Source of the DNA: a virus
Taxonomy: Duplodnaviria > Heunggongvirae > Uroviricota > Caudoviricetes
Virus record (IMG/VR): IMGVR_UViG_2721755721_000002
Strand: one strand, 5' to 3'
Length of the DNA stretch: 41,819 nt
Of this stretch, positions 175 through 8,087 are shown one piece after another. Numbering within the stretch: position 1 is the stretch's first letter; each line of letters begins with the position of its first letter. A program made the translations under genes and the position numbers. The notes under the pieces were generated by a model that was given only the letters and a program-made list of their open reading frames with translations, was not told where the DNA came from and did not search any database.

Positions 175-227
175 GGGCGGCAGAGCAGTCACGGAGTAAA
201 ACTGATACCGCCAAACGTCACCAGAAA
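175..227 (-). ncRNA. dicF: DicF small regulatory RNA (53 nt), followed on the minus strand by a T-run
   Basis: Reverse complement of 175-227 reads TTTCTGGTGACGTTTGGCGGTATCAGTTTTACTCCGTGACTGCTCTGCCGCCC, which I recognise from memory as E. coli DicF; it lies downstream of ydfA/B/C-like ORFs as in the Qin dicB operon. Not database-verified. Confidence 0.75.
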
Positions 228-568: not shown

Positions 569-787
569 CTAACGCGGGTATGTAATCATTCTGGCAATGC
601 TTAATGCCGCTGCTTTTTCCAGATTGGTGATATCCTGCTCCAGAGCGGACAGATTTTCAGCCTGCTTAGCTCTGGCTTCATTGGCCCATTTCAGATCCTG
701 CGCTGCATTAATTTTCTGGTGCATCCACTCATAAAGTTCATCATCGGTATAGTCTGGCGCGATGATGACGGGTTCTCGTTTCTGCAT
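569..787 (-). CDS. ydfC: YdfC-like small protein (72 aa) of the dicB operon
   Basis: 72-aa ORF MQKREPVIIAPDYTDDELYEW...; position between ydfB-like ORF and DicF matches Qin prophage gene order; size matches YdfC. Confidence 0.55.
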   Translation of the reverse strand: MQKREPVIIAPDYTDDELYEWMHQKINAAQDLKWANEARAKQAENLSALEQDITNLEKAAALSIARMITYPR

Positions 788-816
788 ACTGATTCCTCGC
801 GGTGCTGTTTCGCTTA

Positions 817-945
817 TCAGCCGTTAGATTTTGCCGAACTGGAAAGCGCCTGTTTAAATTCGTTGAAGCTGAGAGCTTCTTCGCCTTCGGCAAGACCTTC
901 GAAGTATTCTTCGTAAGCCTTTTCCATGATTGTGTCGAAATCCAT
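817..945 (-). CDS. ydfB: YdfB-like small protein (42 aa)
   Basis: Minus-strand ORF below the track size cutoff: MDFDTIMEKAYEEYFEGLAEGEEALSFNEFKQALSSSAKSNG; start 1 nt after the ydfA-like stop; size and position match YdfB. Confidence 0.5.
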   Translation of the reverse strand: MDFDTIMEKAYEEYFEGLAEGEEALSFNEFKQALSSSAKSNG

Positions 946-946
946 A

Positions 947-1102
947 TCACTCACCTGAGTTTCTTTCCAGCCAGCGACGGGCACCATTTTCGGTTTTAAA
1001 CGTTTTGCTTTTGGTATACGTCATCGCGGTGAACGTACCGTCCTGGTTGGGAAACACGCCGTACACCAGAGATTCGTTGTTGCCAAGATCGATAGTATCC
1101 AT
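947..1102 (-). CDS. ydfA: YdfA-like small protein (DUF1391-like, 51 aa); internal Met of track ORF 947..1183
   Basis: MDTIDLGNNESLVYGVFPNQDGTFTAMTYTKSKTFKTENGARRWLERNSGE; first gene downstream of the repressor on the same strand, as in Qin dicA-ydfA-ydfB-ydfC-dicF. Confidence 0.55.
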   Translation of the reverse strand: MDTIDLGNNESLVYGVFPNQDGTFTAMTYTKSKTFKTENGARRWLERNSGE

Positions 1103-1286
1103 GTTGACCTCATTTCCCCTTAACGCCGGGGTAGCGGAACAAAAACCTGCTGCATAGTTATTAAAGTTGAACCCTGCCGTCATGTTCTTACGCCTCGGGC
1201 TGGCTACTTAACCCCTGACCACTGCCTGGTAACTCGAAGTATTGCCCTGCATTCTGTGGGGTGGGGTGGGTTGGTATGAAAGGAAG

Positions 1287-1327
1287 GATACCCATGGGTA
1301 TCCAAAAAGTAAATACCCATGGGTAAT
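1287..1327. promoter_or_regulatory. Two identical 12-bp perfect palindromes TACCCATGGGTA (1289-1300 and 1314-1325): candidate repressor operators at the dicB-operon promoter
   Basis: Seen directly; perfect dyad symmetry, 25 bp centre to centre, between the repressor stop and the ydfA-like start. Confidence 0.5.
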
Positions 1328-1367: not shown

Positions 1368-1787
1368 TTATGATGCGTTTTGTGCTTTCTTTTTACGGAT
1401 TTCTTCGTAGATCATATTGTAATACTGTTTTTTCTCTTCAAGAGTTTTTAATAAGTTATCCGCTTCACTTTCTGGCAGTTCGTCTAAGAGATCTAAAAAA
1501 ATACGTTGTCGTGGCGTTAGAACCCTTGTTTCATAATTGGAGGCTGTGTTCGTTGATGATGAAACGATACCATCCATCCATCCCCGGGGTAACCCAAAGG
1601 ACTCTTCTATAATCTCCACCATATCATCAGCGATCCGTTTTTTTCCTTTTTTCCCCTCTGGGTACAACATTCTTGATACATAAGAAGGCTCGCGACCGAT
1701 CTTTCTGGCCACGTTAACCGCTTTACCATCGCATTTCTCATCACGAATTTTGATGAGTTGTTGTCGTCTAAATTCATATTTGTCCAT
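1368..1787 (-). CDS. Prophage repressor, DicA/CI-like HTH protein (139 aa from internal Met)
   Basis: HTH-like segment VNVARKIGREPSYVSRML; C-terminal FLDLLDELPESEADNLL resembles the DicA C-terminus from memory; divergent from a Cro-like gene. Track ORF starts at TTG 1829; ATG at 1787 preferred. Confidence 0.65.
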   Translation of the reverse strand: MDKYEFRRQQLIKIRDEKCDGKAVNVARKIGREPSYVSRMLYPEGKKGKKRIADDMVEIIEESFGLPRGWMDGIVSSSTNTASNYETRVLTPRQRIFLDLLDELPESEADNLLKTLEEKKQYYNMIYEEIRKKKAQNAS

Positions 1788-1807
1788 AGGTAAATAATAG
1801 ATGCGAT

Positions 1808-1860
1808 TACCGCAAGGTAAACAACCCAAGGGTATTGACTTTTGTTTACCTGTGGGTATT
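1808..1860. promoter_or_regulatory. Divergent promoter/operator region with three imperfect dyads related to TACCC-N2-GGGTA
   Basis: TTACCGCAAGGTAA (1808-1821), AACCCAAGGGTAT (1823-1835), TACCTGTGGGTA (1848-1859) in the 100-bp gap between repressor and Cro-like starts. Confidence 0.4.
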
Positions 1861-1887
1861 CTTTGCTGTGTTTACTAAGGAGTAGCT

Positions 1888-2169
1888 ATGGAAGAATTAA
1901 GAATATTTCTCAATTCTCTTTCGTCAGATGAACAGCGTATGTTTGCATGTGAGTGTGGTACTAGCATCGGTTATCTAAGAAAGGCATTGAGTAAAGGTCA
2001 AATGTTAGGGGCATCGTTATGTGTCCTTATTGAGCGAGCCAGTAATGGTGAAGTTACACGTCAGCAACTAAGGCCTTTTGATTGGATGAATATTTGGCCC
2101 GAGCTGGAAGATACCAAAACGTTAACACAACCACTTACTAGGAGCTTGATTCATGAAAATCAAGCATGA
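1888..2169 (+). CDS. Cro/DicC/YdaS-like small HTH regulator (93 aa)
   Basis: Small ORF divergent from the repressor; HTH-like segment GTSIGYLRKALSKG; RBS AAGGAG upstream. Confidence 0.55.
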   Translation: MEELRIFLNSLSSDEQRMFACECGTSIGYLRKALSKGQMLGASLCVLIERASNGEVTRQQLRPFDWMNIWPELEDTKTLTQPLTRSLIHENQA

Positions 2170-2578: not shown

Positions 2579-2643
2579 CTGACAATAGCCATATCGAATC
2601 GCTTCCGGCAATTCGTGAGTAAAAAGATTCGGTATCAGAAGAG

Positions 2644-3078
2644 GTGAGTATGGCTAACGCCTGGCTCAGATTATGGCATGACATGCCAAATGACCCTAAG
2701 TGGCGAACAATTGCCAGGGTGTCAGGGCAGCCAATTGCAACAGTGATGGCAGTGTATATCCACCTCCTGGTGAGCGCGTCACGAAATGTCACGCGAGGTC
2801 ACATTGATGTCACGACAGAAGATTTGGCAAGTGCGCTCGACGTGACAGAAGAGGTAATTGATTCAATTTTGCAGACGATGCAGGGGCGGGTACTTGATGG
2901 TGATTTAATCACTGGATGGGAAAAACGCCAGGTGCTTAAAGAGGACAACGGCAATATTTCGCAAACCGCAAAATCTCCGGCAGAGCGCAAGAGGGCGCAG
3001 CGTGAGAGGGAAAGAAAGCGGGAACAAAATGGCGATTGTCACGGCGCGTCACGAAATGTCACGCACATGTCACGATGA
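2644..3078 (+). CDS. Replication initiator (O-like / replisome organiser), N-terminal part, ending at an in-frame TGA
   Basis: 144-aa ORF; contains an iteron-like GTCACG cluster; same frame as ORF 3133..3720 with only one stop between them. Confidence 0.5.
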   Translation: MSMANAWLRLWHDMPNDPKWRTIARVSGQPIATVMAVYIHLLVSASRNVTRGHIDVTTEDLASALDVTEEVIDSILQTMQGRVLDGDLITGWEKRQVLKEDNGNISQTAKSPAERKRAQRERERKREQNGDCHGASRNVTHMSR

Positions 3079-3132
3079 GTCACGACAGATAAAGATACAG
3101 ATAGAGATACAGATAAAGAAGATCAAAACACT
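3043..3132. repeat. Candidate origin: four (T)GTCACG iterons at about 10-bp spacing followed by a purine-rich GATA(A/G)AGATACA repeat tract; a related iteron cluster lies at 2773-2819
   Basis: CGTCACGAAATGTCACGC is duplicated at 2776 and 3046; GATAAAGATACAGATAGAGATACAGATAAAGAAGATC follows the second cluster; location inside the replication gene resembles lambda ori inside O. Confidence 0.45.
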
Positions 3133-3720
3133 ATGGTCCATGGCGTAAAAAACGCCACGAACCATGTAGGGGATGTTCAGACCGTCACTCCTGGCCAGCC
3201 CGCAGGCACGACACCGGAAGCCGATTCAGCGTATGCGCTGAAAGCCGATTCGGGCGCTGTGCAGCAGGCGATGACCGCTGGGCCGGAGCAATCACACCAA
3301 CTGCAGCAGCCTGAAGCCGATTCCGCCATTCAGCGGGAAGCCGATCGGGTAGTCCCGGAAAACACCGGGCAGCCTGTGGGACGAGTGGATTATCCGGATG
3401 TGTTCGAACAGGTCTGGCGGGAATACCCGTTACGAGCCGGGGCAAACCCGAAGAAATCCGCTTTCAGTGCCTGGAAGGCCAGATTACGCGAGGGGGTGCC
3501 ACCAGAGGCCATGCTGGATGGTGTAAGGCGTTACACAAGATACCTGGCTGCTACCGGGAAAACGGGAACGGAATTTGTTCAGCGAGCGACGACGTTTTTT
3601 GGACCGGACCGGAATTTTGAAAACCCCTGGTTGCTCCCGGTAAGCGGCACGAACAACCAGCGTTGTGTTAATCATATTTCTGAACCGGACACCGAAATTC
3701 CGCCGGGATTCAGAGGGTAA
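3133..3720 (+). CDS. Replication initiator, C-terminal part (195 aa), in frame with 2644..3078
   Basis: Contains FEQVWREYPLRAGANPKKSAFSAWKARL, a motif I associate with phage/plasmid replication proteins; frame continuity with the upstream ORF. Confidence 0.45.
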   Translation: MVHGVKNATNHVGDVQTVTPGQPAGTTPEADSAYALKADSGAVQQAMTAGPEQSHQLQQPEADSAIQREADRVVPENTGQPVGRVDYPDVFEQVWREYPLRAGANPKKSAFSAWKARLREGVPPEAMLDGVRRYTRYLAATGKTGTEFVQRATTFFGPDRNFENPWLLPVSGTNNQRCVNHISEPDTEIPPGFRG

Positions 3721-3757
3721 CAGATTTCAGGTCATGGGGTAATTTTCAGGAGGGCTT

Positions 3758-4033
3758 GTGGCAAAAGTTTTTACTCCCGAACTGCGGGAAGAAGTGAAGG
3801 CGCGCATTGTGGAACTGGTACGCAGAGATGGGCGAAAAACGCGTAAACAACTGGAAAATGAAACCGGGGCGACGAGACACCTGATAGAAGTTCTGGTGAA
3901 AGAGCTGGTAGTTAGTGGCGCAGTATATGGTTCAGGACATGGAATATTTCCTTCGGAGCAGGCTCGTAAGGACTGGGGAAAAGCCCGCAAAAAAAATGTC
4001 GAGAGCGGCAGTGAAAAAGAAGAGCGACCCTGA
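3758..4033 (+). CDS. Hypothetical small basic protein (91 aa, GTG start)
   Basis: ORF with AGGAGG-like RBS; no family recognised; overlaps the next ORF across an A8 tract. Confidence 0.35.
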   Translation: MAKVFTPELREEVKARIVELVRRDGRKTRKQLENETGATRHLIEVLVKELVVSGAVYGSGHGIFPSEQARKDWGKARKKNVESGSEKEERP

Positions 4034-4409: not shown

Positions 4410-7208
4410 ATGTGGGGAAGTGAAAACAAACAAAATCTGGACGTACTGGATCCTGTGCAGTTGGTGCGTATCGAAGCGGTACACCGGGGGTTCCTTTACC
4501 AGCATCTTTACGCTGTAGGCTGCTTACTTTTGGCGCAGAGGGCAGCTATGGACTCAGTAACTGTCGAGCTTGATGAGGATATTGAGCTGAAATCCAAACA
4601 GGAACGTCTCTACATTCAGGTTAAAACCCGTTCAAAACCTATTATGCCCAACGATGTGTCGGGGGCTCTGGAGCGATTTGTAAAGCTCAGAAATGAGCAT
4701 ACTTCGGCAAACCGCGAAGGGGTGGCTTCTTTTGTGATTATTGTAAACCAGGCGCCTGGACCGCTGCTTCAGAAGATGATTGACGATAAAAAGCTTCCTT
4801 CTGATGTTCTTATTGTCTGGCCCCAGTCGACAGCTGGACGTCACCCGGCACTTCCGCCCGCATGGAGTACTCTGGCTGATGCGGCCACATGGTGTATCGC
4901 AGAAGCAGAAAAGCTGAAATTTTCACTATTGTCCCCAGAATCCTTGATTTGGAAGTTAGCAGGATTGGTTCAGCTTGCCGCCACCGGAGGCGATACCAAT
5001 GGACAACATACGTTTTTCACGGAAGAACTTACTGAACTATTTGAACAGTTGATCGTTCAGCTACAGGACTTTCCTGCACCACCAGCACTGTACCGCCCAC
5101 AGAACGAAGAACCTTCTCTCACATCTGGTGAGCGGATCCGTATCCTTTGTGGACTCTCAGGTGCAGGCAAGACAGCTTGGGCCGCACAGGCCGCATTACA
5201 CTCCACTGCACTTTGTGCTTATTACGACACCGGTGATCTTCCCGGTCCAGCTCTGGCCAGTACGCTGGTGCGCGAGATGGCTGCTAGATTTACAGCCCGT
5301 GACCAAGACGGTTTGCGCAGGATTTTGCTCCCCGGTGCCAGTGGTTTTGAGGCTCTTAGGAGTTTTGATACCTACCTGAAAGAGCAGGGTACCACCTTGG
5401 TGCTGGTTCTGGATAACGCCCATCGTGTACCTGCGGAAAATCTACTGGATGTTCTGAATGCAACTACACATATTCGTTTTGTGCTGTTGTGCCAGCCTCA
5501 CGAAAACGTTCGCGAACTGGAGGTCATGACGGGGCTACAGCGCGAGGGCCTGCAGGGATGGAATCTCGATACGGTAGCTGTCGTTGTAAACGATATCGGA
5601 GGATTTGCCACCGCTATGGGATACGAGCAGCTACGGGCTTACACTGGTGGTCTTCCCCTGTATGTAGAGAGCGCCGCAAAAATCGCCGTTTCTGATTATG
5701 AGCGTAATGTCGATGCTCTGTGTGCTGAACTCCAGCAACAAACCCATACTGCGGAAACCGCCCAAGAAATTATTCTGTCACGTGTATTTCAGGGATTTGA
5801 ATCACTACTTCAGAGCGCGCTGGCATTGTTCAGTCTCTCTGACGTAGGGCTGAGTCGCGAAGAGATTTCTACGCTCCTAATCAATTCGCTGAACATTTCA
5901 CCAAGCAGTGCTGCTTCTTTAATTAGGAAAATGCGCGCTACTGGCACTATTGAAATTTATGGAAACCAGACCCTGAAGGTACATGATGCTGTCAGGGGGC
6001 TAGGACTGCAACATCTGGAACTGATGGATCAGGGTATATCGAACAAAGCGCTACTAGCGCTGAAAGACCTTTTAGTTGAAAGTCTTCATAATACCCGCAA
6101 TACAAAACGGTTATCGTTGTTGACTCAACTTTATATTAAGCTCAATGATGTCACGACGTTGATCGAACTCTCAGGCCAAGAAATGTTTTATGAGATGGGC
6201 GTGACGGTCGACATTCTTGCAAGCTTGGAGCGTGCTGCAACATCGGACTTATTGGGACCTGTTCATAAATTCTGGGCATTGGATGGCCTTGTTTTCGTTG
6301 AGCTTAAAGACGGAATATCCGACCACATTGCTCAGAGGTTAAACATCATGGGAGCTTTACTTGCGGAGCACAAGTTCGGCTATCAAGAAGAGATGGCCTA
6401 TGCAATGAAACGAATGTTATTTTCGGCAGAAAGCAATGATGCACGAGAAGTTCAAAAGCTGGCACAGGAAGTCCGCCCCCAACTCCCAGATGAAGAACAT
6501 AAACGCATCTTTGACTACAACCATGCCATTGCACTCTGGAGATTAAAAAAACTCAAGGATGCTGAAACATTAAGCTGTAATGTTATACAAGGGTACTATT
6601 CTTTATTTGGTATCACACCTGCTGATGTCATAGGAAAAAACGCCGACGCATTATGGAAAACTATTAATCATTCCGAAAATATGCAGGAACACTTTAAACA
6701 TATGGCTGATGCTCTGGAGTTGCTGGCCAGAATTCGTGATGCGCAGGGAAAACTGTCACCATTACTGCGTATTCATTCGATGAAGTTCTACAATCTGGCC
6801 ATGGCCCCGGAATCCATGGTCAGGGTGGGCCAAGATCTGGCGGATGAGTTTGTTGCCATAAAGGATTACGACGGTGCCAAGGAAGTCATGGAGCAACATG
6901 TCCTGCCGGTTGTCAATGAGGCAGGTCTAGTACATCGACTGATTCAGGTTCGAAGCCAATACGCAGTCATATTAGCACTATCGGGTCAGCATAAAGCAGC
7001 TGATGTCGAAATGCAGCGCCTTGCTCCCTATATCGAAGGCCTCACAGGTGTACAGCGTCAAGAAATCCAAAATCAATCAAATTACATCGTACAGCTTGCC
7101 CATAAAGCAGCAAAGACTAAATTAACTGAAGTTTTTGGTGCGGTCGGCCGGAATGAACAATGCCCCTGTGGCTCGGGAATAAAGTACAAAAAATGTCACG
7201 GTGCCTGA
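4410..7208 (+). CDS. Large STAND-type P-loop NTPase with candidate N-terminal PD-(D/E)xK-like effector, C-terminal helical repeats and SEC-C zinc knuckle; putative single-gene antiphage protein
   Basis: 932-aa ORF; Walker A GLSGAGKT (aa 248-255), Walker B LVLVLDNAH (aa 330-338); N-terminal VELDEDIEL...YIQVKTRS; C-terminal CPCGSGIKYKKCHG; lower GC than flanking phage genes, AT-rich upstream. Confidence 0.75.
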   Translation: MWGSENKQNLDVLDPVQLVRIEAVHRGFLYQHLYAVGCLLLAQRAAMDSVTVELDEDIELKSKQERLYIQVKTRSKPIMPNDVSGALERFVKLRNEHTSANREGVASFVIIVNQAPGPLLQKMIDDKKLPSDVLIVWPQSTAGRHPALPPAWSTLADAATWCIAEAEKLKFSLLSPESLIWKLAGLVQLAATGGDTNGQHTFFTEELTELFEQLIVQLQDFPAPPALYRPQNEEPSLTSGERIRILCGLSGAGKTAWAAQAALHSTALCAYYDTGDLPGPALASTLVREMAARFTARDQDGLRRILLPGASGFEALRSFDTYLKEQGTTLVLVLDNAHRVPAENLLDVLNATTHIRFVLLCQPHENVRELEVMTGLQREGLQGWNLDTVAVVVNDIGGFATAMGYEQLRAYTGGLPLYVESAAKIAVSDYERNVDALCAELQQQTHTAETAQEIILSRVFQGFESLLQSALALFSLSDVGLSREEISTLLINSLNISPSSAASLIRKMRATGTIEIYGNQTLKVHDAVRGLGLQHLELMDQGISNKALLALKDLLVESLHNTRNTKRLSLLTQLYIKLNDVTTLIELSGQEMFYEMGVTVDILASLERAATSDLLGPVHKFWALDGLVFVELKDGISDHIAQRLNIMGALLAEHKFGYQEEMAYAMKRMLFSAESNDAREVQKLAQEVRPQLPDEEHKRIFDYNHAIALWRLKKLKDAETLSCNVIQGYYSLFGITPADVIGKNADALWKTINHSENMQEHFKHMADALELLARIRDAQGKLSPLLRIHSMKFYNLAMAPESMVRVGQDLADEFVAIKDYDGAKEVMEQHVLPVVNEAGLVHRLIQVRSQYAVILALSGQHKAADVEMQRLAPYIEGLTGVQRQEIQNQSNYIVQLAHKAAKTKLTEVFGAVGRNEQCPCGSGIKYKKCHGA

Positions 7209-7485
7209 GTCTTTGTACGACCATGCGGGCCTTATTGTCTTGCTATTGCTCTTATGGTTCGCCTTTCTGATTGATTTCATATTGGCGAGGTGACGGGAGT
7301 TAAGTAGAATGGCTGCGGGTGCTTGAGGCTATCTGTCTCAGGCATGAACACCAAAGGCAGATAGAGAAAAGCCCCAGTTAACATTACGCGTCCTGCAAGA
7401 CGCTTAACATTAATCTGAGGCTCAATCTATGAACGGCAAATCTAGGTTAGCCTCTTACGTGCCGAAAGGCAAGGAGAAGCAGGCT

Positions 7486-7641
7486 ATGAAGCAGCAAAAG
7501 GCGATGTTAATCGTCCTGATCGTCATCTGTTTAACCGTCATAGTGACGGCACTGGTAACGAGGAAAGACCTCTGCGAGGTACGAATCCGAACCGGCCAGA
7601 CGGAGGTCGCTGTCTTCACAGCTTACGAACCTGAGGAGTAA
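7486..7641 (+). CDS. hok: Hok/Gef-family type I toxin (51 aa)
   Basis: MKQQKAMLIVLIVICLTVIVTALVTRKDLCEVRIRTGQTEVAVFTAYEPEE is near-identical to HokD/RelF as I remember it; AAGGAG RBS; the track ORF 7429.. is an in-frame upstream extension. Confidence 0.85.
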   Translation: MKQQKAMLIVLIVICLTVIVTALVTRKDLCEVRIRTGQTEVAVFTAYEPEE

Positions 7642-7808: not shown

Positions 7809-8087
7809 ATGGCGCACGATACCAAATTACACAATTCTAATGATTCTGCTGTCTTTGCCAGCAGGTGCGGACGGCGTTTTCACGCATTCACATCAGACTG
7901 GTTCCAGCATCCTCCATGCACTGAAGAGCAGGCTGAATGGATAATTCAGTGTTACCGCAGGCGTGGATACGAGGTTAAGAAAGCTCTTAGTCTCGACTAT
8001 CGTCACTGGATAATCTCAGTCAGACTCCCTTACTCCGAACGCCCACCGCGTCCGTCCCGCACATTCCAGCAACGCATCTGGAGGTAA
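7809..8087 (+). CDS. Hypothetical protein (92 aa from ATG 7809)
   Basis: The track ORF 7680.. would run through the hok terminator hairpin, so the internal ATG is preferred; no family recognised. Confidence 0.35.
   Translation: MAHDTKLHNSNDSAVFASRCGRRFHAFTSDWFQHPPCTEEQAEWIIQCYRRRGYEVKKALSLDYRHWIISVRLPYSERPPRPSRTFQQRIWR

What the first reader, a model, noticed from the sequence alone, without database searches (positions are those of the whole stretch)
1287..1327. Twin perfect 12-bp palindromes (TACCCATGGGTA) between the repressor and the ydfA-like gene
Two identical perfect dyads 25 bp apart sit where the dicB-operon promoter lies in Qin, which DicA represses. Three weaker versions occur in the divergent repressor/cro region (1808-1859).
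Basis: partly seen in the sequence, partly recalled or inferred. Interest (0 to 1): 0.45.

Follow-up and report, generated by a model that had tools for sequence, protein, structure and literature searches.

The report
Left operators of a prophage repressor
The two identical palindromes are most likely the "left operator" sites where this E. coli prophage's repressor sits on the promoter of the ydfA-dicF-dicB cell-division-inhibitor operon; this is a textbook lambda-type arrangement, but its DNA specificity (TACC-N4-GGTA) is not described in the literature I could search and turns out to be conserved in phages across many Proteobacteria.

Summary
TACCCATGGGTA occurs exactly twice in 41.8 kb, at 1289-1300 and 1314-1325, 25 bp centre to centre. 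The looser TACC-N4-GGTA occurs four times, all in the immunity region (0.21 expected). The dyads lie 43-79 bp downstream of the 139-aa repressor gene. They are interleaved with a leftward sigma-70-like promoter (-35 TTTACT, 17 bp, -10 TATCCT) that heads ydfA-ydfB-ydfC-DicF(-dicB).

In 40 loci fetched through the repressor's N-terminal domain, plus phage mEp043, TACC-N4-GGTA dyads sit at fixed offsets upstream of most repressor genes (OR1/2/3). In 31 of the 42 regions compared they also occur as a twin 25-26 bp apart downstream, always with a promoter in the same register. The reverse test agrees: of 120 viral contigs retrieved by the DNA cassette alone, 103 carry the matching repressor and/or Cro family, always in PL or PR geometry.

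Best reading: these are OL1/OL2 of a PL-type promoter. Binding itself is inferred, not shown.

The repressor is a chimera. Its N-terminal domain is shared with mEp043 cI and with S24-type repressors. Its C-terminal domain is DicA-like.

Verdict: a new member of a known kind, of moderate-to-low interest.

The parts
1314..1325 (.). OL2, the promoter-distal operator dyad TACCCATGGGTA; it abuts the -35 of PL
   Evidence: Exact palindrome. In 31 regions the distal dyad of the twin is followed directly by the -35 hexamer.
1289..1300 (.). OL1, the promoter-proximal operator dyad TACCCATGGGTA (core of the 16-bp palindrome 1287-1302); its last 2 nt begin the -10 of PL
   Evidence: In 31/31 regions with a twin, a TAnnnT hexamer starts at the last two bases of the proximal dyad.
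1308..1313 (-). Predicted PL -35 hexamer TTTACT (read on the minus strand, 1313..1308)
   Evidence: Read. Same register as TTGAC(A) in relatives and as TTGACA in Rac. It is below the threshold of the generic promoter scan (8/12; one search did not list it).
1285..1290 (-). Predicted PL -10 hexamer TATCCT (1290..1285), 17-bp spacer; predicted start near 1277-1278
   Evidence: Homology to Rac and many other phages begins at 1278, i.e. at the predicted +1.
1184..1278 (-). Conserved leader of the leftward operon, shared (about 91-100% identity in the listed hits) with Rac and many phages that carry other immunity modules
   Evidence: RNA fold unremarkable (z +1.2).
1368..1787 (-). 139-aa prophage repressor: helix-turn-helix N-terminal domain (aa 1-75) plus DicA-like helical C-terminal domain (aa 84-136)
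   Evidence: No Pfam hit. PHROG 5736 transcriptional regulator. C-terminal domain matches NF007257 DicA, E 2.5e-5. AF2 model pLDDT 86. Best Foldseek hit is the SPC32H Rep-Ant repressor 5D50.
1808..1819 (.). OR3, TACCGCAAGGTA; overlaps the -35/spacer of PRM
   Evidence: Same offset (start about 32-33 nt before the repressor ATG) in most related loci.
1823..1834 (.). OR2, AACCCAAGGGTA (family-typical one-sided variant ..GGTT on the repressor strand); abuts the -35 of PR
1847..1858 (.). OR1, TACCTGTGGGTA; lies between -35 and -10 of PR and overlaps the -10
1835..1862 (+). PR: TTGACT-16-TATTCT, driving the cro-like and cII-like genes
   Evidence: Promoter scan.
1794..1821 (-). PRM: TTTACC-16-TATTAT; the -10 ends 6 nt before the repressor ATG (1787), which implies a leaderless repressor mRNA
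   Evidence: plus reading. Leaderless cI and paaR2 are described in PMC8630535.
1888..2169 (+). Cro-like (YdaS-family) gene, probably the second protein that uses the same operators
   Evidence: The Cro family is co-conserved with the operators.
947..1102 (-). ydfA-like (DUF1391), first gene of the operon under PL
   Evidence: Pfam E 1.7e-28; annotation of an identical E. coli locus.
569..945 (-). ydfB (945..817) and ydfC (787..569)
175..226 (-). DicF sRNA; dicB follows just beyond the window start
   Evidence: Rfam RF00039, 76.7 bits; dicB is annotated in L001.

Best explanation
The twin palindromes are OL1 (1289-1300) and OL2 (1314-1325). They are the left operators of a lambda-type immunity region in a Rac/Qin-like lambdoid prophage of E. 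coli.

Proposed mechanism:
- Dimers of the 139-aa repressor bind the two dyads through the helix-turn-helix N-terminal domain, probably cooperatively, since the centres are 25 bp apart.
- Binding blocks RNA polymerase at the embedded leftward promoter PL. Its -35, TTTACT, directly follows OL2. Its -10, TATCCT, starts inside OL1.
- This keeps the ydfA-ydfB-ydfC-DicF-dicB operon silent in the lysogen; that operon encodes cell-division inhibitors.
- The same protein, and probably the Cro-like YdaS homologue, uses three related dyads (OR1-3, 1808-1858) to run the divergent PR/PRM switch.

What is shown:
- the sites, their clustering, and their register with promoter hexamers;
- conservation of that register in 31 regions;
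- co-inheritance of the sites with the repressor N-terminal domain and with the Cro family.

What is inferred:
- actual binding and cooperativity;
- any OL-OR looping (about 520-550 bp apart);
- the transcription start;
- release of the repressor by an antirepressor, since it has a DicA-like tail and no S24 protease domain. This last step is the least supported.
For: 1. Clustering. The exact 12-mers occur only here, and the copies with up to 2 mismatches occur only in the repressor/cro intergenic region. TACC-N4-GGTA occurs 4 times against 0.21 expected, all in the immunity region.

2. Forward comparative test. Forty genomic loci were fetched through the N-terminal domain alone, from Enterobacterales, Aeromonas, Xanthomonas/Stenotrophomonas, Neisseria, Burkholderiales, Nitrosomonas and Ferrovum. 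With mEp043 and the window they hold 121 exact TACC-N4-GGTA sites against 3.8 expected. Of these, 63 lie 20-90 bp upstream of the repressor start, 57 lie downstream of the gene, and 1 lies elsewhere. The upstream sites start at fixed offsets of about -73, -48 and -33. The downstream sites form a twin 25 bp (23 regions) or 26 bp (8 regions) apart.

3. Promoter register. In all 31 twins a -35 hexamer directly follows the distal dyad, with a mean of 4.55/6 matches against 1.55 in the opposite direction. A -10 with A2 and T6 starts at the last 2 nt of the proximal dyad in 31/31. The spacer is 17-18 bp, and the promoter reads away from the repressor.

4. Reverse test. Of 120 IMG/VR contigs retrieved by the DNA cassette alone, 79 have an N-terminal-domain homologue. 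All 83 of their cassettes are in PL geometry (78) or PR geometry (5), and none in any other. In total 103 of the 120 have the N-terminal-domain and/or Cro family.

5. A cultured phage. In the lambdoid phage mEp043 the twin lies between cI (plus one ORF) and the N gene, which is the classical PL position.

6. Microevolution. In E. coli copies about 97% identical, substitutions fall in the central 4 bp while TACC/GGTA stay fixed, apart from one OR3 change.

7. Parallel design in Rac and Qin. Rac aligns column for column, with its own dyads and TTGACA/TAGTTC in the same places. Homology between Rac and the window starts at the predicted +1. In Qin one clear TTAG-N6-CTAA dyad lies between a TTGACC (-35) and a TAATCT (-10), with a degenerate copy read by eye upstream.

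8. Published precedent. DicA represses dicBp in Qin (PMC10448788), and PaaR2 and YdaS repress a PL with OL1-3 in CP-933P (PMC8630535).
Against: - No binding or expression data exist for this repressor/operator pair, and none was found in the literature searched.
- The window's PL hexamers match consensus only 8/12, and the generic promoter scan did not list them.
- The link between recognition helix and operator is imperfect. A subgroup of viral loci (for example L084) keeps the same cassette and the same Cro family, but its repressor N-terminal domain is only remotely related (hhalign E 4e-5, different helix 3). The operators may therefore be constrained at least as much by Cro.
- Eleven of the 42 regions showed no twin within the DNA fetched.
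- No antirepressor was found: there is no Rem homologue and no LexA box in the window. How repression would be lifted is unknown.
Confidence: 0.85

Rival explanations
1. The two palindromes act mainly as RNA. On the minus strand they pair with each other into a 16-bp hairpin that terminates the repressor (PRM) transcript before it can read into the toxic dicF/dicB operon.
For: The terminator scan lists a 16-pair stem, 1325..1289 on the minus strand, followed by TCCTTCCTTT. The RNA fold gives -25.4 kcal/mol, z = -4.0, with 0 of 200 shuffles folding as well. No other terminator-like element lies between the repressor stop codon and ydfA. A stop to read-through is functionally needed there.
Against: - Any two copies of one palindrome can pair, so the hairpin follows automatically from two identical operators.
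- Across 31 related twins the central tetranucleotides are not complementary to each other (mean 1.5 of 4, close to the roughly 1 of 4 expected by chance), so the long stem is not conserved.
- The tail is C-interrupted and a poor U-tract.
- In many relatives the twin lies 0.4-2.2 kb from the repressor gene, with other genes in between.
- The conserved promoter register is not explained by a terminator.
- At most this is an added, lineage-specific function.
Confidence: 0.1
2. The dyads are recognised chiefly by the Cro-like YdaS homologue (1888-2169), the lytic repressor, and the 139-aa protein acts elsewhere or only at OR.
For: The Cro family travels with the cassette even more consistently than the repressor N-terminal-domain family: 94 against 79 of 120 viral loci. 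This includes 24 loci where the repressor N-terminal domain is not detectably of this family. In CP-933P YdaS does repress PL (PMC8630535).
Against: - In every characterised lambdoid switch the repressor and Cro share operators (lambda; also PaaR2/YdaS, PMC8630535).
- DicA, not DicC, is the repressor that keeps dicBp off (PMC10448788).
- A lysogen needs the maintenance repressor to silence dicB.
- N-terminal-domain homologues down to 39% identity keep the SYVSRMLY helix and the dyads, and two Advenella loci with a different helix lack them.
Confidence: 0.04
3. The palindromes are a chance or duplication relic with no function.
For: None beyond the fact that the count at up to 3 mismatches is not enriched.
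Against: The exact copies, their positional clustering, and their conservation in register with promoter elements across Gamma- and Betaproteobacteria.
Confidence: 0.01

Closest known systems
Phage lambda OL/PL (CI and Cro operators)
   Same: Dyad operators lie downstream of the repressor gene on a leftward early promoter. One site overlaps the -10 and the next abuts the -35. Neighbouring sites are about 24-25 bp apart centre to centre. A three-site OR runs divergent PR/PRM. The repressor mRNA is predicted to be leaderless. (Lambda facts are from established knowledge and PMC8630535.)
   Different: The sites are 12 bp (TACC-N4-GGTA), not 17 bp. OL has two sites rather than three. OR2 and OR3 are only 15 bp apart. 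The repressor has no S24 self-cleavage domain. The cargo operon is ydfABC-dicF-dicB, not N.
Qin prophage DicA / dicBp (E. coli K-12)
   Same: The controlled operon is the same (ydfA, ydfB, ydfC, DicF, dicB). The operators have the same position relative to the repressor gene. The repressor tail is homologous (aa 84-136 against DicA 79-131), and the repressor is short and lacks S24 (PMC10448788).
   Different: The DNA-binding domain is unrelated by sequence. Qin's sites are TTAG-N6-CTAA-like, and there is no TACC-N4-GGTA in Qin. DNA homology to Qin starts only about 40 bp before ydfA. The Rem antirepressor of Qin is absent from this window.
Rac prophage RacR / ydaS-ydaT immunity region
   Same: The leader of the leftward operon is near-identical from the predicted +1. 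Rac has twin dyads 25 bp apart with the -35 between them, and three dyads in the divergent region. Both have YdaS/YdaT-type cro and cII genes and an exact YdaT-box at the ydaT start (PMC11879457).
   Different: RacR is a different protein and its dyads are TAGG-N5-CCTA. The downstream genes differ (ydaG/ydaF/kilR against ydfABC-dicF-dicB).
Phage mEp043 cI and its relatives (S24-type 'LexA family' repressors of Salmonella, Pantoea, Klebsiella, Edwardsiella and Xanthomonas prophages)
   Same: The N-terminal DNA-binding domain is 70-85% identical among Enterobacterales (76% by tblastn to mEp043 cI). They share the Cro family, the same TACC-N4-GGTA operators, and the same OR1-3 and OL1-2 geometry.
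   Different: Those repressors are 221-242 aa with an S24 autoprotease domain, which implies RecA-dependent induction. This one carries a DicA-like helical tail instead.
CP-933P PaaR2 / YdaS / PL933P, and SPC32H Rep-Ant
   Same: These are short helix-turn-helix repressors with helical oligomerisation tails that lack self-cleavage. PaaR2 has OL and OR operator sets and a leaderless mRNA (PMC8630535). SPC32H Rep is the best structural match to the model (5D50).
   Different: PaaR2's operator sequence differs (GTTTAGTAA-type repeats). There is no toxin-antitoxin pair after this repressor, and no antirepressor gene was identified here.

Membership tests
Lambdoid OL/PL operator-promoter | Two or more dyad-symmetric sites of the same type as those in the repressor/cro intergenic region | tested here: met
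   TACC-N4-GGTA at 1289, 1314, 1808 and 1847, plus a one-mismatch copy at 1823; none elsewhere in 41.8 kb.
Lambdoid OL/PL operator-promoter | Located downstream of the repressor gene and upstream of the leftward early operon, overlapping a sigma-70 promoter that reads leftward | tested here: met
   The position follows. The hexamers TTTACT-17-TATCCT are in the register conserved in 31/31 twins, with the opposite direction as control. The window's own hexamers are weak (8/12).
Lambdoid OL/PL operator-promoter | Sites are bound by the prophage repressor (and Cro), and binding represses PL | not testable with these tools
   Only co-inheritance of sites with the repressor N-terminal domain and the Cro family is available.
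Lambdoid OL/PL operator-promoter | Neighbouring sites spaced to allow pairwise cooperative binding (about 24-25 bp) | tested here: met
   25 bp here, and 25 or 26 bp in all 31 related twins. Cooperativity itself is untested.
DicA regulon (Qin) | Repressor is a DicA orthologue | tested here: not met
   NF007257 scores 24 bits against a cutoff of 101, and the match covers residues 84-136 only. The N-terminal domain belongs to another family.
DicA regulon (Qin) | DicA-type operator sequence | tested here: not met
   Qin has TTAG-N6-CTAA sites and no TACC-N4-GGTA.
DicA regulon (Qin) | Controls the ydfABC-dicF-dicB operon | tested here: met
   Gene content by Pfam, Rfam and RefSeq annotation. Control itself is inferred.
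mEp043-type immunity module (N-terminal domain + Cro + TACC-N4-GGTA) | N-terminal DNA-binding domain with the conserved SYVSRMLY helix and KKRIA loop | tested here: met
   72-76% identity to mEp043 cI over the N-terminal domain.
mEp043-type immunity module (N-terminal domain + Cro + TACC-N4-GGTA) | Three dyads at about -73/-48/-33 from the repressor start, plus a downstream twin | tested here: met
   Window offsets are -72/-47/-32, and the twin lies 43/68 nt after the stop codon.
mEp043-type immunity module (N-terminal domain + Cro + TACC-N4-GGTA) | S24 (LexA-like) self-cleaving C-terminal domain | tested here: not met
   No S24 match. The C-terminal domain is a DicA-like helical hairpin.
Rho-independent terminator | GC-rich hairpin followed by a U-tract, conserved among relatives | tested here: inconclusive
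   The hairpin is strong. The tail, UCCUUCCUUU, is poor. The inter-dyad stem is not conserved in the family, but is kept (with one G-U) in close E. coli relatives.

The most novel reading that the evidence does not exclude
TACC-N4-GGTA, together with its fixed promoter register and its Cro partner, defines a single immunity specificity that has stayed frozen across temperate phages of Gamma- and Betaproteobacteria. Meanwhile the repressor's signal-sensing half has been swapped repeatedly: several S24 autoprotease types, a DicA-like antirepressor-type tail, and longer forms. In one subgroup even the N-terminal domain has drifted almost beyond recognition. If so, phages of different genera would be cross-immune at the operator level. 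The same switch could then be wired to RecA cleavage or to antirepression simply by exchanging tails. In this E. coli lineage the two operators have additionally become identical perfect palindromes, which may double as the terminator of the repressor transcript.
Probability: 0.4. Interest if true: 0.5.

Novelty: new member of a known kind. Interest (0 to 1): 0.33.

Why it matters
- This immunity module is present in 822 of 5,426 complete E. coli genomes. There it is presumably what keeps the division inhibitors DicF and DicB silent.
- Its repressor is annotated only as 'hypothetical protein' and matches no Pfam family.
- Naming the operator gives a directly testable repressor-operator pair.
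- It predicts homoimmunity with phage mEp043.
- It offers a natural series for asking how induction chemistry is exchanged without touching DNA specificity: one DNA-binding module joined to different sensor tails.
- Mechanistically it is a standard lambda-type arrangement, so no established idea is overturned.

Tried and rejected
- **Literature on the motif.** Full-text searches for the 12-mer and for several ways of writing TACC-N4-GGTA found nothing. Searches on mEp043 found no operator study.
- **Protein family of the repressor.** Pfam gave no family. A sequence search of the PDB gave only non-significant winged-helix (Z-alpha) hits.
- **Structured RNA in the leader.** I folded the conserved leader to look for a nut/put-like element. 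The fold was unremarkable (z +1.2).
- **Route of induction.** There is no Rem homologue. The ORF next to hokD that I first suspected to be Rem is a different, unnamed 92-aa protein, and relatives carry rem as an extra gene at that spot. There is no CTGT-N8-ACAG LexA box in the window.
- **Generic promoter scan.** It did not list PL. The promoter call rests on register and on conservation.
- **A miscounted statistic.** A first count of -35/-10 conservation mixed both orientations and was uninformative. It was redone strand-specifically.
- **A weakened argument.** I expected recognition helix and operator to correlate cleanly, but the L084-type loci weaken that.
- **Megablast against phage genomes.** It matched only the leader (window 1184-1278), not the operators or the repressor.

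Full report
**1. Observation**

TACCCATGGGTA is present exactly at 1289-1300 and 1314-1325. The two centres are 25 bp apart. These are the only exact copies in the 41,819-bp window. The only copies with up to 2 mismatches are at 1823-1834 and 1847-1858, in the repressor/cro intergenic region.

The count at up to 3 mismatches (14 against 13.3 expected) is not informative. The relaxed pattern TACC-N4-GGTA is: 4 matches (1289, 1314, 1808, 1847) against 0.21 expected, and 0 of 100 shuffles reached 4. The first copy is the core of a 16-bp perfect palindrome (1287-1302).

**2. Context**

Reading leftward on the minus strand, the region contains:
- a 139-aa repressor gene (1787..1368);
- 42 bp of spacer;
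- the two dyads;
- a 95-bp leader (1278..1184);
- ydfA-like DUF1391 (1102..947), ydfB (945..817) and ydfC (787..569);
- the DicF sRNA (226..175; Rfam 76.7 bits).

In an E. coli chromosome that is 100% identical over 1184-1900 (and differed at only one of about 1,200 bases compared at 2600-3800), dicB follows. Rightward from the divergent region lie a YdaS-like cro gene (1888-2169) and a YdaT/CII-like gene (2153-2578). The rest of the window is a lambdoid prophage: a Q-like antiterminator, RusA, large ORFs laid out like a lambda-type head and tail region (not checked against protein families), and other functions.

**3. Promoters**

The scan finds two promoters in the divergent region:
- PR is TTGACT-16-TATTCT (1835-1862, + strand).
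- PRM is TTTACC-16-TATTAT (1821..1794, - strand). Its -10 ends 6 nt before the repressor ATG, which implies a leaderless mRNA, as for lambda cI and paaR2 (PMC8630535).

OR1 (1847-1858) lies between the -35 and -10 of PR and supplies the first two bases of the -10. OR2 (1823-1834) abuts the -35.

On the minus strand the twin dyads show the same design: OL2, then TTTACT, then 17 bp that contain OL1, then TATCCT (1290..1285), which starts with the last two bases of OL1. These hexamers match consensus only 8/12, and the generic scan did not list them. The call therefore rests on the comparative data below.

**4. Mosaic boundary**

Megablast against phages and against 5,426 E. coli genomes shows that window 1184 to about 1278 is shared, at about 91-100% identity in the listed hits, with thousands of prophages that carry other immunity modules, including Rac of K-12. 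The homology stops just before the dyads. The whole operator-repressor-operator module (1184-1900) is present in 822 of 5,426 genomes.

Aligned with Rac, the two regions correspond column for column. Rac has its own dyads (TAGG-N5-CCTA, also 25 bp apart), TTGACA between them and TAGTTC after them. Identity with the window begins at CATACC, about 7 nt after the -10, which is the predicted +1.

In Qin, one clear TTAG-N6-CTAA dyad lies between a TTGACC (-35) and a TAATCT (-10) upstream of ydfA, with a degenerate copy read by eye upstream, and related sites occupy the dicC/dicA region. Neither Qin nor Rac has a TACC-N4-GGTA site.

**5. The repressor**

- It matches no Pfam family but matches PHROG 5736, 'transcriptional regulator'.
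- Residues 84-136 match the C-terminal part of DicA (NF007257, E 2.5e-5, far below the full-length cutoff).
- Residues 1-75 are 70-85% identical to the N-terminal domains of 221-242-aa S24/LexA-type repressors of Salmonella, Yersinia, Edwardsiella, Pantoea and Klebsiella. They are 76% identical to cI of the cultured lambdoid phage mEp043.
- An AlphaFold model (pLDDT 86) gives a helical N-terminal domain with a helix-turn-helix (helices 23-30 and 34-40), a basic loop (41-53), a disordered linker (76-87) and a C-terminal helical hairpin.
- The best PDB match is the antirepressor-controlled Rep of Salmonella phage SPC32H (5D50). After it come XRE-type helix-turn-helix proteins, but all of these lower hits are non-significant (E above 0.03).

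The protein is therefore a chimera: an mEp043-type DNA-binding module joined to a DicA-type tail.

**6. Forward comparative test**

Forty genomic loci were fetched through the N-terminal domain alone. They come from Enterobacterales, Aeromonas, Xanthomonas/Stenotrophomonas, Neisseria, Burkholderiales, Nitrosomonas and Ferrovum.

- Together with mEp043 and the window, they hold 121 exact TACC-N4-GGTA sites against 3.8 expected. Of these, 63 lie 20-90 bp upstream of the repressor start, 57 lie downstream of the gene, 1 lies elsewhere and none lies inside the gene.
- The upstream sites start at about -73, -48 and -33. The middle one is typically a one-sided variant, as in the window.
- Downstream, 31 of the 42 regions have a twin 25 bp (23 regions) or 26 bp (8 regions) apart. 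The twin lies 43 to about 2,200 bp after the stop codon, and the intervening and downstream genes differ from locus to locus. In mEp043 the twin precedes the N gene.
- In all 31 twins a -35 hexamer follows the distal dyad, with a mean of 4.55/6 matches against 1.55 in the opposite orientation. A TAnnnT hexamer starts at the last two bases of the proximal dyad in 31/31. The spacer is 17-18 bp.
- The half-site consensus is (A/T)TACC(C/T)(A/G).
- The divergent Cro-like gene is a co-conserved family in these loci.

**7. Reverse test**

IMG/VR was scanned with the DNA cassette alone (TACC-N4-GGTA-TTGAC-N7-9-TACC-N4-GGTA).

- 79 contigs hold an N-terminal-domain homologue. All 83 of their cassettes are either on the repressor's strand downstream of it (78, PL-type) or divergent within 150 bp upstream of it (5, PR-type). 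None has any other geometry.
- Counting the Cro family as well, 103 of the 120 hold one or both partners. Many of the remaining 17 have the cassette close to an end of the fetched stretch.
- 24 loci have the Cro family but no detectable N-terminal-domain homologue. In one of them (L084) the repressor N-terminal domain is only a remote relative (hhalign E 4e-5) with a different third helix, yet the operators are the same.

This last point tempers a tidy helix-operator correlation. Homologues down to 39% identity keep SYVSRMLY and the dyads, and two Advenella loci with a different helix lack them. The L084 case suggests that Cro constrains the operators at least as much as the repressor does.

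**8. Microevolution**

Three E. coli copies about 97% identical to the window differ from it mostly in and next to the operators. The changes fall in the central four bases (CATG to CATA or CACG; CCAA to CTGT) or in the spacer, and TACC/GGTA are kept apart from one OR3 change. The 'perfect identical palindromes' are thus a feature of this lineage. What is conserved more widely is the outer 4+4.

**9. Rival: terminator**

On the minus-strand RNA the two dyads pair into a 16-bp stem (-25.4 kcal/mol, z -4.0) followed by UCCUUCCUUU. No other terminator-like element separates the repressor gene from the toxic operon.

However, any two identical palindromes pair. Across the family the dyad centres are not complementary to each other (mean 1.5/4), and the tail is a poor U-tract. 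I rate this as a possible, lineage-specific second function and not as the primary one.

**10. Mechanism**

The mechanism I commit to is this: repressor dimers on OL1 and OL2 occlude the -10 and -35 of PL and silence ydfABC-dicF-dicB. The same protein at OR1/OR2 shuts PR, and from OR2 it may stimulate PRM. Cro uses the same sites.

The basis for each step is as follows.
- Shown: the site anatomy, the promoter register, the conservation and the co-inheritance.
- Inferred from lambda, from Qin DicA/dicBp (PMC10448788) and from CP-933P PaaR2 (PMC8630535): binding, cooperativity, OL-OR looping over about 0.5 kb, and release by an antirepressor.
- Unresolved: no Rem homologue and no LexA box were found in the window, so the induction route is open.

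**11. Verdict**

The thing is an ordinary kind of element, the left operators of a lambdoid immunity region. Its specificity is not described in the searchable literature, and it proves to be very widely conserved and coupled to interchangeable repressor tails. I rate it a new member of a known kind, of moderate-to-low interest.

Noticed in passing
window 2146-2163: An exact YdaT-box, TTGATTCATGAAAATCAA (TTGATT-N6-AATCAA), has the ydaT-like start codon (2153) in its spacer. It is identical to the site reported for the CP-933P YdaT and one base different from the Rac YdaT-box (PMC11879457). It is the only match in the window.
   Followed up: partly
window 3076 (ORFs 2644-3078 and 3133-3720): The O-like replication initiator is cut by a single C-to-T nonsense change (CGA to TGA). 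A near-identical E. coli prophage (L001) has the intact 356-aa gene. This prophage copy is therefore probably replication-defective.
   Followed up: yes
window 4410-7208 (+): A 932-aa protein sits between the ren-like gene and hokD. It ends in a SEC-C-type CPCGSGxKYKKCH motif and is annotated 'SEC-C metal-binding domain-containing protein' in RefSeq. It matches no PHROG family. It looks like a moron, possibly a defence gene.
   Followed up: partly
window 7429-7641 and 7809-8087: A HokD-type toxin gene is followed by a 92-aa unnamed ORF just before the DUF968/HNH gene. In some relatives (L047) the Qin antirepressor gene rem is inserted between them. It is absent here, and tblastn finds no Rem anywhere in the window.
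   Followed up: yes
window 1787-1821 (minus strand): The PRM -10 (TATTAT) ends 6 nt before the repressor ATG and there is no Shine-Dalgarno sequence, so the repressor mRNA is predicted to be leaderless, as for lambda cI and paaR2. The same layout (a TAxAAT-like hexamer a few nt before the ATG) is visible in many related loci.
   Followed up: partly
window 1184-1278: A 95-bp leader is conserved at about 91-100% identity (in the listed hits) across thousands of E. coli prophages with unrelated immunity modules, including Rac. It begins exactly at the predicted PL start. The predicted RNA fold is unremarkable, and why it is so conserved is unexplained.
   Followed up: partly
L084 4281-5640 (and L088, L091, L098, L107, L117, L131, L139, L165): These are viral contigs, by Cro similarity close to the Stenotrophomonas/Xanthomonas loci. 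They have the same TACC-N4-GGTA PL and PR cassettes and the same Cro family. Their S24 repressor has an N-terminal domain only remotely related to the window's (27% identity, different third helix).
   Followed up: partly
L038 and L042, about 2930-3000 (Advenella): N-terminal-domain homologues with a changed recognition helix (HPASISHMLY) lack TACC-N4-GGTA. Instead they show a longer inverted repeat of the type ATACCGC...GCGGTAT upstream of the gene, which may mark a shifted specificity.
   Followed up: no
L002 2604-2641 and 3245-3308 (Rac, K-12): Rac has TAGG-N5-CCTA dyads as a twin 25 bp apart downstream of racR, flanking a TTGACA, and as three sites 25-26 bp apart in the racR/ydaS region. 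This is the same geometry as in the window with a different sequence.
   Followed up: partly
whole window: There is no CTGT-N8-ACAG LexA box anywhere in the 41.8-kb prophage, and no S24 domain in the repressor. An SOS-linked induction route is therefore not apparent.
   Followed up: partly
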